Source: Escherichia coli (GTDB taxonomy: Bacteria > Pseudomonadota > Gammaproteobacteria > Enterobacterales > Enterobacteriaceae). From it: a stretch of DNA of 49,226 bases. The DNA lies in the NCBI RefSeq assembly GCF_003334765.1, contig NZ_QOWT01000030.1, one strand, 5' to 3'. This document shows positions 21,001 to 24,000 of this stretch, piece by piece. Made by a program: the position numbers. Position 1 is the stretch's first letter, and the number at the start of each line of letters is the position of its first letter.

Positions 21001-24000
21001 CAGCCAGCCCCAGATACCACGTTCAGCGATAAAGCGCCATTGTGCTCCCGGCAGGTTAATGCAGTAGTGGTCATCGCCCTGAGATTCCGCGTGGAAAACC
21101 TGCTCATACTCCATCTCAGACAACATTTTTGCCACCAGCCGACGGTTAACAAAATCCCAGTCCTTGTGATTCATTACAGACCGACCTCCGTGAAGAAGTG
21201 ATGACGATCCGCCATCACCATGCGCGAGCGCTTATGTGGGAAGTCGAACTCTTTAATTGTCCGGTATCCCGCAGGCTCAAGATGGCGGAACAGGCGCTGG
21301 TTATCGGTGCGTGGCTCCAGTACTGTGCGCTGCGTACGGGGCTCATCCAGCAGCAGGTAATGTGTCAGCCCGCGCAGCCAGCTTTGCACATAGTGGGCCC
21401 CGCGCCATTGCTGTTCACCAACCAGCAGATGCAGGCCACGGTCAAAGGGCTGCCACGAATAGTGACGACCAATGCGGTCTTCCGCCGCCCAGTAGATTTC
21501 AAAATAGCTGAATGGCCGATCGTCGAAGCACCCAATCAGCGGGAATGCATGTTTACCGGTGAGCTGGCGCTCCAGATAGGCGGTCTGTACCTCCAGTGAG
21601 CCACTTTGCTCCCAGAAATACTCAACGCGCGGATCATTCATCCAGCGGGTGAAACGTTCTGCATCAGAAACGGGATCGGCAATGCGGAAACTCAGCATCC
21701 TGCGAATACGTGGATCGTAACGGCGGTAAACCTCACCCTGCGGACGGGGTGGGCGCTGCGGGAAATAAATCTCACGCTCTGCATCAAAAACCATTTCACC
21801 GGAGGCCCGGTTTGCCGGTGAACTCAACCATAACGGTAACTGCCAGAAGGCGGTACGATGGATAATGTCGCTTTTTACCTGCCCAAAAAGCGTCAGCGCC
21901 TGTGGCTCCTCACACCATTCGGCCCAGGGGAGAGCCACTGCTGACAGTTGTGGTGCGGCGATAAATATCTGATCCAGCGCATCGCACAGCCACCCTGTCG
22001 GCAGCTCCCCGGGACAGTGCAACACCGCGCTATTGTCCAGTCCCCAGCCAAGATTCAGGGGCTTGTCGAGTTTTTCACAGCGCAGTCCATATCTGCTGTG
22101 AATAATGTTTGCCTCAGACATTCAGACCTCCTGAGCCTGCAGCGGGTTAGCGAAATCGAAATAGATCACCGAAGGGTCAACAATGGTGTTCTCGTTATGA
22201 TCGTTCAGATAACAGAAAAAGTTACCTTTTACGTTCCAGTACGGACTTTCCAGCACGTAGTTGAGACAGGTTTTATGAGTCACCTGATCACGCACTTCAG
22301 CCAGCGATGCTCGTACACGAGCCATCAGATTCGATTCGCTGTCCAGCCCGGCAGCCCCCAGCGCAGCGGTCACAGCAAAAGTGGAGTTAACCAGCAGGTA
22401 ATAAGGGAAATAGCGCAGCAACTGCTCATGGGTGAAAATATTTTCCGCCTGCGCCTCGCCAATAGAATCGAGCCAGTCTGTCGCGTGAGGCATAAAAGCG
22501 CTGCCCTGACAGTCACGGTAAATAAATCCGACCGGCAGATCCCCAAGCATCTGGACAAGAATATTTTGCTGATGCGCCAGCAGCACCAGGCCGTAATCCG
22601 CTTCAGCCGTAAACAGCGGCTTTAGCACTTGCTGACAGTATGCATCGACCCATGCATGGGCGGCCTGTTGCACAGTGATACCGAGGCGATCGCTCAGGCG
22701 TTTTACCGCCGAAACCAGCAGCGAATCACCGCCATCAGGTGCGGCCTGAGTCAGGGAGACCAGTACGTTGGTCTGGCTTTTCGGCTGATCCACCAGCAGA
22801 TTTTCACGCAGGGCAAACAGACTTTCCTGCATGATGTTGCCGTTAAGATCGAGCAGCCCGGCCCAGCCATCCTCCTGCATTACCCGGAAAGTCGGGAAGC
22901 GGACCTGTAGCATCTGCCAGCCGTCGGTTTGAGCCAGGCGTGCCAGGCGCATCCCACGCTTCACTTCTTTCACGGACAGAGTACGGATGGAGTTGGTCAG
23001 CCGTACGCTCAGGGAGAACTTGATCATATCGCGGCTGGTGGCACAGTAGAGGGAACGGGAAGAGGTGGTCGGCAGCCACGACGTGCCGGCCTCACCTAAG
23101 TCTTTAATCAGCCCTTTAGCAACAAGTGCCTGGCACCACCCCTGCTGCAAAAGATATTCCCCCTGCCACGGGTGCAACGGGAACAGCCATTGGTTGTCAC
23201 TTAATTCGTTGAGTAACTGAGGCGCATTCTCTGCGGCAAATCGCGTCAGCCGCTGTTGAAGGTTGAGATGCAAACTTTCACCGGCGATTTGCGTTTTATC
23301 CACCGAAAACCACCGCAGTGGGAAGTGGGGTGCCATATCAGGCAGGTAGCGTTCAGCCTCCCGCCGGTTAAACGGTTCATGAGACTTAGGCGCAGGGTGG
23401 AAAGCGTGTCCTGTCAGCAGCGCCTGCTCAGCTTCGCCAAAATTCAACGCTTTTTCACGCAGGGCGGTCCAGTCATGACGGGCATCAATTGCCTGTTGCG
23501 TATGGGCGTGGCTTTCCAGCACGCGCTGGTGGAAAGTTTCGCAGAGGGGAACGGGCAGAAACAGTTGATGCCGTAGCTTATCAATAATAAGCCGGGAGAG
23601 AGTGGTAAAGTCGACAGGATAACTGCCTGATGCCGTGACCAGACGTGCAGGAAATGCAAAGCGGTGATGCTGGGTTGGGGAGAAATAAGCCACTCTGAAA
23701 TGGAGCGATTTCTGCTCATCCAGCGGGATGATCAATTCGTCTGGCGGGTATTCTGTCAGTTTCCAGTCTGTGGTTTCACGAATCAGTGCATTCAGGAAGC
23801 ACTGCGCAGCCACATCTGTGGCTGGTTTTTCAGAGGGCAGGGTCATAGTCAAACAGCTCCCACACAGTAAAATAATAACAATTATGTCAATAATGATTCT
23901 CATTATCAATAAGAAATGTTATTGTCAGATAAATTAATTTTACAAATAAACACAATTAATACATGGAGTTGAAACATTAAAATGTCACCTGGGATCGAAG

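What the first reader, a model, noticed from the sequence alone, without database searches (positions are those of the whole stretch)
23846..23981. Divergent iucA/shiF control region with a near-consensus Fur box
GATAATGAGAATCATTATT (17 of 19 to consensus) sits 43 nt upstream of the likely iucA start and 75 nt upstream of the divergent MFS gene. The longest iucA ORF would run through this operator, so the internal Met (MTLPSEK, with GGAG upstream) is the real start. The MFS gene is probably co-regulated by iron.
Basis: partly seen in the sequence, partly recalled or inferred. Interest (0 to 1): 0.3.

Follow-up and report, generated by a model that had tools for sequence, protein, structure and literature searches.

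The report
Known aerobactin iucA/shiF Fur operator

Summary
GATAATGAGAATCATTATT lies at 23889-23907 on the minus strand and matches the Fur consensus at 17 of 19 positions. It is 43 nt from the iucA ATG (23846) and 75 nt from the MFS/shiF ATG (23982). Chance would give 0.03 such sites per window. The box overlaps the -35 hexamer and spacer of the strongest sigma-70-like promoter in the region (TTGATA-17-CATAAT, 23909-23881). The TTG that opens the longest iucA ORF is that -35 hexamer itself, so the internal Met (MTLPSEK) is the start. RefSeq annotation and the solved IucA structure agree with this.

The aerobactin promoter is one of the founding footprinted Fur operators. The 451 bp around the site are 100% identical to E. 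coli CFT073. There, published Fur ChIP-seq and RNA-seq assign exactly this 19-mer to both iucA (119-fold derepressed in a fur mutant) and shiF (32-fold). Iron-dependent shiF induction and the shared Fur box were also reported for plasmid pS88.

Only the shiF promoter, and so the exact way Fur blocks it, remains unmapped. Verdict: already known, low interest.

The parts
23889..23907 (-). Primary Fur box GATAATGAGAATCATTATT (17/19 to consensus)
   Evidence: One search gives 2 mismatches, with 0.03 matches expected by chance. One search shows the same 19-mer at CFT073 3469185-3469203 (= window 23889-23907), assigned to both iucA and shiF under a Fur ChIP-seq peak.
23881..23909 (-). Aerobactin promoter P1: -35 TTGATA (23909-23904), 17-nt spacer, -10 CATAAT (23886-23881). 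Predicted transcription start is near 23874.
   Evidence: This is the best sigma-70-like match on either strand (10/12; top PWM score with uniform background). A review of de Lorenzo 1987 states that both Fur sites lie within P1, overlapping the -35 and -10.
23868..23886 (.). Secondary, weaker Fur-like matches over the -10 and start region. They belong to a run of overlapping 11-13/19 matches spaced 3 or 6 bp apart, from 23868 to 23926.
   Evidence: This fits the published secondary site and the long operator (M10930 291-393, 13 predicted sites).
23857..23861 (-). Shine-Dalgarno GGGAG for iucA, 10 nt before the ATG
   Evidence: Read directly from the sequence.
22122..23846 (-). iucA coding sequence (574 aa, starts MTLPSEK)
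   Evidence: RefSeq annotation of the identical CFT073 sequence. PDB 5JM7 IucA aligns from residue 22 of the long ORF.
23847..23909 (-). Spurious 21-codon 5' extension of the longest iucA ORF, from a TTG that is the -35 hexamer
   Evidence: The extension lies upstream of the P1 -10 and has no homology in the solved IucA. Cronobacter has in-frame stops at the equivalent position.
23982..25175 (+). shiF: MFS transporter, 397 aa, divergent from iucA
   Evidence: Pfam MFS_1 at E 5e-20. RefSeq calls it an MFS transporter. It is 91% identical to the ColV-plasmid ShiF.
23929..23968 (.). A 40-nt block just upstream of shiF, conserved between E. coli and Klebsiella alleles far better than the 20 nt between it and the Fur box. 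Its role is not established. Candidates are the shiF core promoter or leader, the minor upstream iucA promoter, and the distal part of the long Fur operator.
   Evidence: Alignment A3, columns 86-125. No convincing sigma-70 match lies there.

Best explanation
This is the aerobactin promoter-operator. When iron is plentiful, metal-loaded Fur binds the 19-bp box at 23889-23907. The box overlaps the -35 hexamer and spacer of iucA promoter P1. Further Fur then binds the adjacent weaker hexamer repeats over the -10 and upstream. RNA polymerase is excluded, so iucABCD-iutA is silent. Under iron limitation Fur leaves, and P1 fires from about 23874. This gives a leader of about 28 nt with GGGAG, and translation starts at ATG 23846. 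The same Fur-occupied stretch lies 75 nt upstream of the divergent shiF gene and represses it too, so the exporter-like MFS protein is made together with the siderophore enzymes. Shown elsewhere, on identical or near-identical DNA: Fur occupancy, Fur-dependent repression of both genes, and iron-dependent induction. Inferred here: the exact P1 start, and how Fur blocks the shiF promoter, which has never been mapped.
For: The site is 17/19 to consensus and far above chance. It overlaps the best promoter match in the region. The 451 bp at 23700-24150 are 100% identical to CFT073 and to many other E. coli chromosomes; 1812 of 5426 complete E. coli genomes carry the region. CFT073 Fur ChIP-seq gives a peak summit at 3469166 (= window 23870), and the motif table lists this exact 19-mer for both iucA and shiF. 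In RNA-seq, fur-/wt is 119-fold for iucA and 32-fold for shiF, both unaffected by RyhB. In pS88 qRT-PCR, shiF rose 7.7-14-fold and iucA 16-45-fold in the serum, urine and iron-depleted-LB columns of the table, and the authors note the shared Fur box. In Shigella RNA-seq, shiF falls together with iucABCD-iutA under anaerobiosis. The ColV-type allele is identical over 23862-23910, which includes the footprinted operator core. The box is kept at 43 nt from the ATG in four alleles, and a 17/19 box is present in the Cronobacter homologue. The start codon is supported.
Against: Nothing contradicts it. The gaps are as follows. No Fur binding or expression was measured on this very DNA molecule; the argument rests on 100% identity to CFT073 over 451 bp. 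The original footprinting papers (de Lorenzo 1987, Escolar 2000) could not be read here and are cited through later papers. ChIP-seq resolution cannot say which of the two promoters a given Fur molecule blocks. No strong sigma-70 promoter for shiF is evident.
Confidence: 0.95

Rival explanations
1. The Fur box controls only iucA. On this view, shiF responds to iron through a separate, weaker Fur site or through Fur oligomerising along the A+T-rich DNA between the box and shiF, not through the 19-mer itself.
For: The box ends 75 nt from the shiF ATG. One candidate shiF promoter (-35 TTGTCA at 23922, -10 AATAAA at 23945) would lie wholly outside it. The published aerobactin operator is unusually long (M10930 291-393, 13 predicted sites). 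Weak 11-12/19 matches continue to 23926 and recur at 23945-23963. shiF derepression (32-fold) is smaller than that of iucA (119-fold).
Against: Only one ChIP peak and one motif are reported for the two genes. Another candidate shiF promoter has its -35 (TTCTCA, 23897-23902) inside the box. Oligomerisation would still nucleate at the primary box, so this is a refinement rather than an alternative.
Confidence: 0.3
2. IucA starts at the upstream TTG (23909) or ATG (23903), giving the 595-aa or 593-aa form, translated from a transcript that begins further upstream.
For: The frame is open for 21 codons upstream in the E. coli and Klebsiella alleles. From memory, a minor upstream promoter (P2) has been described for the ColV operon.
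Against: The TTG is the -35 hexamer of P1, and both codons lie upstream of the -10. Neither has a Shine-Dalgarno sequence in front of it. The predicted extension (IMRIIIDIIVIILLCGSCLT) is just a translated A+T-rich operator. Solved IucA homology starts at residue 22. RefSeq uses 23846. Cronobacter has in-frame stops there.
Confidence: 0.02
3. The match is a chance product of A+T-rich intergenic DNA and has no regulatory role.
For: The intergenic region is 76% A+T, and A+T-rich DNA is enriched in partial Fur-box matches.
Against: Dinucleotide-preserving shuffles give 0.03 matches per window. The site is conserved across alleles that differ by 23% in the flanking DNA. A ChIP-seq peak sits on the identical sequence.
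Confidence: 0.01

Closest known systems
Aerobactin promoter-operator of plasmid pColV-K30 (de Lorenzo et al. 1987; Escolar et al. 2000), one of the footprinted sites used to define the Fur box
   Same: Same operon, same P1 hexamers and same 19-mer. A ColV-type plasmid allele is identical to the window over 23862-23910. The Fur sites overlap the -35 and -10, and the operator is long.
   Different: The window carries the chromosomal (CFT073-type) allele, about 6% diverged from ColV plasmids over the 451 bp. One base differs just upstream of the -35 and one in the Shine-Dalgarno region.
The iucA/shiF Fur ChIP-seq site of uropathogenic E. coli CFT073 (Banerjee et al. 2020, PMC7157518)
   Same: 100% identical over 23700-24150. 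The same 19-mer is listed for both genes, and both are directly repressed by Fur.
   Different: None within the control region. Outside 15682-25254 the window is not CFT073 but an O55/O145-like island.
Bidirectional Fur-controlled enterobactin regions fepA-fes, fepB-entC and fepDGC-entS of E. coli K-12
   Same: Divergent siderophore biosynthesis and transport genes share a short A+T-rich control region with Fur sites. entS, like shiF, is an MFS siderophore-export gene divergent from iron-uptake genes (references listed).
   Different: In those regions both promoters and footprints have been mapped. Here the shiF promoter is unmapped. ShiF is only an auxiliary factor for aerobactin secretion.
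Cronobacter plasmid iucA-like/MFS locus
   Same: Divergent IucA-family and MFS genes are separated by exactly 135 nt and have a 17/19 Fur box.
   Different: The box lies 20 nt rather than 43 nt from the synthetase ATG. The intergenic sequence is otherwise barely alignable. A siderophore-interacting protein gene follows the MFS gene.

Membership tests
Fur operator (Fur box) | Match to the 19-bp consensus GATAATGATAATCATTATC | tested here: met
   17/19 at 23889-23907, against 0.03 matches expected per window.
Fur operator (Fur box) | Position overlapping core promoter elements, so that bound Fur excludes RNA polymerase | tested here: met
   The box covers -35 TTGATA (23909-23904, overlapping at 23904-23907) and the spacer of the top-scoring promoter. 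Weaker matches cover the -10.
Fur operator (Fur box) | Metal-dependent binding of Fur protein to the DNA | not testable with these tools
   Published instead. There is a Fur ChIP-seq peak on the identical CFT073 sequence, and footprints on the ColV allele are cited.
Fur operator (Fur box) | Fur- and iron-dependent expression of the adjacent genes | not testable with these tools
   Published instead. In CFT073, fur-/wt is 119-fold for iucA and 32-fold for shiF. Both are induced in iron-poor media in pS88.
Fur operator (Fur box) | Conservation of the site in orthologous control regions | tested here: met
   16-17/19 at the same 43-nt distance in ColV-type, E. fergusonii/Salmonella and Klebsiella alleles, and 17/19 in Cronobacter at 20 nt.
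Aerobactin operon iucABCD-iutA with divergent shiF | Gene order iutA-iucD-iucC-iucB-iucA on one strand, with the MFS gene divergent | tested here: met
   ORFs are at 15897-23846 (minus strand) and 23982-25175 (plus strand). The block is 99.8% identical to the annotated CFT073 block.
Aerobactin operon iucABCD-iutA with divergent shiF | IucA is an NIS-type aerobactin synthetase | tested here: met
   Full-length match to solved K. pneumoniae IucA 5JM7 (E = 0, 1197 bits).
ShiF (MFS transporter) | Major facilitator superfamily domain | tested here: met
   Pfam MFS_1 at E 5e-20 over residues 18-336. No NCBIfam model matched.
ShiF (MFS transporter) | Contribution to aerobactin secretion | not testable with these tools
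   Published for the 91%-identical pS88 ShiF, where deletion halves aerobactin in supernatants.

The most novel reading that the evidence does not exclude
The 'unusually long' Fur operator described for the aerobactin promoter may exist because it has to reach the divergent shiF promoter. Mapping the published footprint (M10930 291-393) onto the window by my own arithmetic puts it at about 23863-23965. That would take it through the conserved 40-nt block to within about 17 nt of the shiF ATG. On this reading, Fur nucleates at the primary box and spreads upstream to silence shiF, and the block at 23929-23968 is the shiF core promoter embedded in the distal operator.
Probability: 0.35. Interest if true: 0.2.

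Novelty: already known. Interest (0 to 1): 0.04.

Why it matters
As a discovery it does not matter: this is a textbook operator, and the shiF co-regulation was shown by ChIP-seq and RNA-seq in 2020 on the same sequence. It is useful in two ways. It is a positive control showing that the first-stage reader can recognise a real operator and pick a correct start codon from raw sequence. It is also an annotation note: ORF callers that take the longest ORF will over-extend iucA by 21 codons through its own promoter. The one small open point is where the shiF promoter lies and how Fur blocks it.

Tried and rejected
(1) I tried to read the primary footprinting papers (PMC212138 and PMC103753). Neither is held, so they are cited through later papers.

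(2) A full-text search for the CFT073 locus tags c3627 and c3628 found nothing relevant. The tags turned up only in the supplements of PMC7157518.

(3) I tried to locate the shiF promoter by consensus and PWM scans and by phylogenetic footprinting.
- TTCTCA-17-TATTGT (23897/23920) has its -35 inside the Fur box, but the -10 loses its final T in Klebsiella.
- TAGTCA-16-TAAAAT (23846/23868) would give a leader of about 100 nt crossing the box.
- TTGTCA-17-AATAAA (23922/23945) lies outside the box.
- TTAATA-16-TAAAAT (23956/23978) is rejected because its start would fall inside the coding sequence.
None of these is convincing, so the promoter is left open.

(4) I assumed at first that the window was CFT073. 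That is wrong: only 15682-25254, plus an inverted iha segment, match.

(5) NCBIfam gave no hit for ShiF or for the ORFs flanking the second Fur box.

(6) I decided against the expensive genome contigs and metagenome scans and the big protein searches. The question was settled by identical published sequence.

Full report
**What is in the sequence**

iucA lies on the minus strand and the MFS gene on the plus strand. They are separated by a 135-nt intergenic region (23847-23981) that is 76% A+T. A search with the 19-bp Fur consensus finds GATAATGAGAATCATTATT at 23889-23907 on the minus strand, with two mismatches. Dinucleotide-preserving shuffles of the window give a mean of 0.03 matches at this stringency. 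Scoring every 19-mer in the window shows it is the joint best match in 49 kb; the other is at 37390-37408.

The longest iucA ORF begins at TTG 23909 and runs through the box. The internal Met gives MTLPSEK, with GGGAG 10 nt upstream.

**Promoter geometry and the start codon**

The best sigma-70-like match on either strand is TTGATA (23909-23904), a 17-nt spacer, then CATAAT (23886-23881), on the iucA strand (10 of 12). It also has the top PWM score with a uniform background. The Fur box therefore covers the -35 hexamer and the spacer. A run of weaker overlapping matches (11-13/19, spaced 3 or 6 bp apart) continues over the -10 and upstream to 23926.

The TTG that opens the long ORF is the first three bases of the -35 hexamer. 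Both it and the next in-frame ATG (23903) lie upstream of the -10, so neither can be on the P1 transcript. Three further results agree:
- RefSeq starts iucA at the position equal to 23846 in CFT073.
- The solved K. pneumoniae IucA (5JM7) aligns from residue 22 of the long ORF.
- The Cronobacter homologue has in-frame stops in the equivalent stretch.

**Where the sequence comes from**

The 451 bp at 23700-24150 are 100% identical to E. coli CFT073 and to many other chromosomes. The region occurs in 1812 of 5426 complete E. coli genomes. It also occurs in about 1500 plasmids of Escherichia, Klebsiella, Salmonella and Shigella.

The window as a whole is not CFT073. Only 15682-25254 (iutA-iucDCBA-shiF) matches it, at 99.8%, plus an inverted iha segment. 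The remainder resembles an island of O55:H7 and O145 strains. The aerobactin-shiF block is therefore a module set in different islands, with an IS3-family transposase pseudogene (frameshifted, incomplete) starting about 390 nt after the shiF stop.

**Comparative evidence**

In the ColV-type plasmid allele, the E. fergusonii/Salmonella allele and two Klebsiella lineages, a 16-17/19 box sits at the same 43 nt from the iucA ATG. Overall identity of the region falls to 77% in Klebsiella. The ColV-type allele is identical to the window over 23862-23910.

Cronobacter plasmids have the same divergent IucA-family/MFS layout with a 135-nt spacer. They also carry a 17/19 box, but 20 nt from the ATG, in sequence that otherwise barely aligns. 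So a Fur box is a conserved property of this control region.

**What is already published**

The aerobactin promoter of pColV-K30 is one of the footprinted sites used to build Fur binding models. It has primary and secondary sites within P1 and an exceptionally long footprint, M10930 291-393.

Lemaitre et al. 2012 measured shiF induction in the ColV plasmid pS88. The three growth-condition columns of their table (human serum, urine and iron-depleted LB) give 7.7-, 14.0- and 14.2-fold. [quoted passage not shown] Genuini et al. 2019 showed that deleting shiF halves secreted aerobactin. In Shigella flexneri RNA-seq, shiF falls together with iucABCD-iutA under anaerobiosis.

Banerjee et al. 2020 are decisive. 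They performed Fur ChIP-seq and RNA-seq in CFT073:
- Table S1 lists iucA (peak height 341, 119-fold up in the fur mutant) and shiF (peak height 331, 32-fold up, independent of RyhB) as direct Fur targets.
- Their motif table gives GATAATGAGAATCATTATT at NC_004431.1 3469185-3469203 for both genes. With the offset, this is window 23889-23907.
- The peak summit, 3469166, is window 23870.

**Mechanism**

These points are shown by published work on identical or near-identical DNA:
- Fur occupies this site in vivo.
- Both divergent transcription units are derepressed without Fur or under iron limitation.

These points are inferred here from geometry:
- Fur on the box excludes RNA polymerase from P1.
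- Transcription starts near 23874.
- Translation starts at 23846.

How Fur blocks shiF is not established, because the shiF promoter has not been mapped. Scans give three weak candidates:
- One has its -35 inside the box (TTCTCA 23897, TATTGT 23920).
- One would be read through the box (TAGTCA 23846, TAAAAT 23868).
- One lies outside the box (TTGTCA 23922, AATAAA 23945).

A 40-nt block (23929-23968) is conserved between E. coli and Klebsiella much better than the DNA between it and the box. It may hold the shiF promoter or leader, the minor upstream iucA promoter, or the distal part of the long operator. Mapping the published long footprint onto the window is my own arithmetic. It assumes M10930 is numbered in the iucA direction and that the 19-mer lies within the published primary region (347-370), at about position 349. 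On that basis the footprint spans about 23863-23965, which would cover every shiF promoter candidate. This is the only mildly open point.

**Verdict**

The feature is already known, so interest is low. The practical lesson is that longest-ORF calling over-extends iucA by 21 codons through its own operator.

Noticed in passing
window 37384-37414: There is a second cluster of Fur boxes here: 17/19 at 37390-37408, flanked by overlapping 15/19 and 14/19 matches. It lies in the divergent intergenic region between two ORFs with no family match, 36545-37054 (minus strand) and 37500-37970 (plus strand; the latter looks hydrophobic, possibly a membrane protein). The box is about 90 nt upstream of the latter. 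The stretch is present in 1074 E. coli genomes, including O157:H7, and is annotated only as 'hypothetical protein'. Nearby are an IS1 and a 374-aa ORF (39324-40448, minus strand) that matches glycosyltransferase family models; the homologous O145 island also has CPBP-peptidase and alpha/beta-hydrolase fragments. From memory this set resembles a decayed siderophore-microcin locus; I did not test that.
   Followed up: partly
window 15682-25254 versus the rest of the window: Only the iutA-iucDCBA-shiF block matches CFT073 (99.8%). The flanks differ and resemble an O55:H7/O145 island, and an IS3-family transposase pseudogene (frameshifted, incomplete) starts about 390 nt after the shiF stop. The aerobactin-shiF unit behaves as a portable module. 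In the O145 relative, iucC is truncated.
   Followed up: partly
window 46094-46112: A 13/19 Fur-like site (AATAATGAGAATAATTTAT) lies 52 nt upstream of the iha start (46164). iha is a direct Fur target in CFT073, 181-fold derepressed.
   Followed up: partly
window 23982 and L003 2783-2804: The shiF start codon is not conserved. The E. coli ATG is ACG in Klebsiella, where the annotated start is 7 codons further in (MPQKTLS...), and E. coli has no ATG at that position. The first 7 codons of E. coli ShiF are therefore lineage-specific. Its GGAG is 13 nt from the ATG, which is rather far.
   Followed up: partly
window 23807-23824: There is a terminator-like hairpin on the plus strand (CAGCCACA-TCTG-TGGCTG followed by GTTTTT). 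It lies inside iucA codons 8-14 and is antisense to iucA. The Klebsiella IucA differs in residues 5-10, just before and at the start of this stretch; I did not compare the nucleotides, so whether the hairpin is conserved is untested. It may well be chance.
   Followed up: no
window 23906-24334: A 142-aa ORF runs antisense to the 5' end of shiF and ends at the Fur box. It may correspond to the overlapping 'shiG' ORF mentioned for SHI-2. Nothing seen here suggests that it is a real gene.
   Followed up: no
window about 19435 (iucD start): The literature reports a predicted RyhB pairing site over the iucD start codon and RyhB-dependent up-regulation of iucD and iutA in CFT073. I did not examine this in the window.
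   Followed up: no
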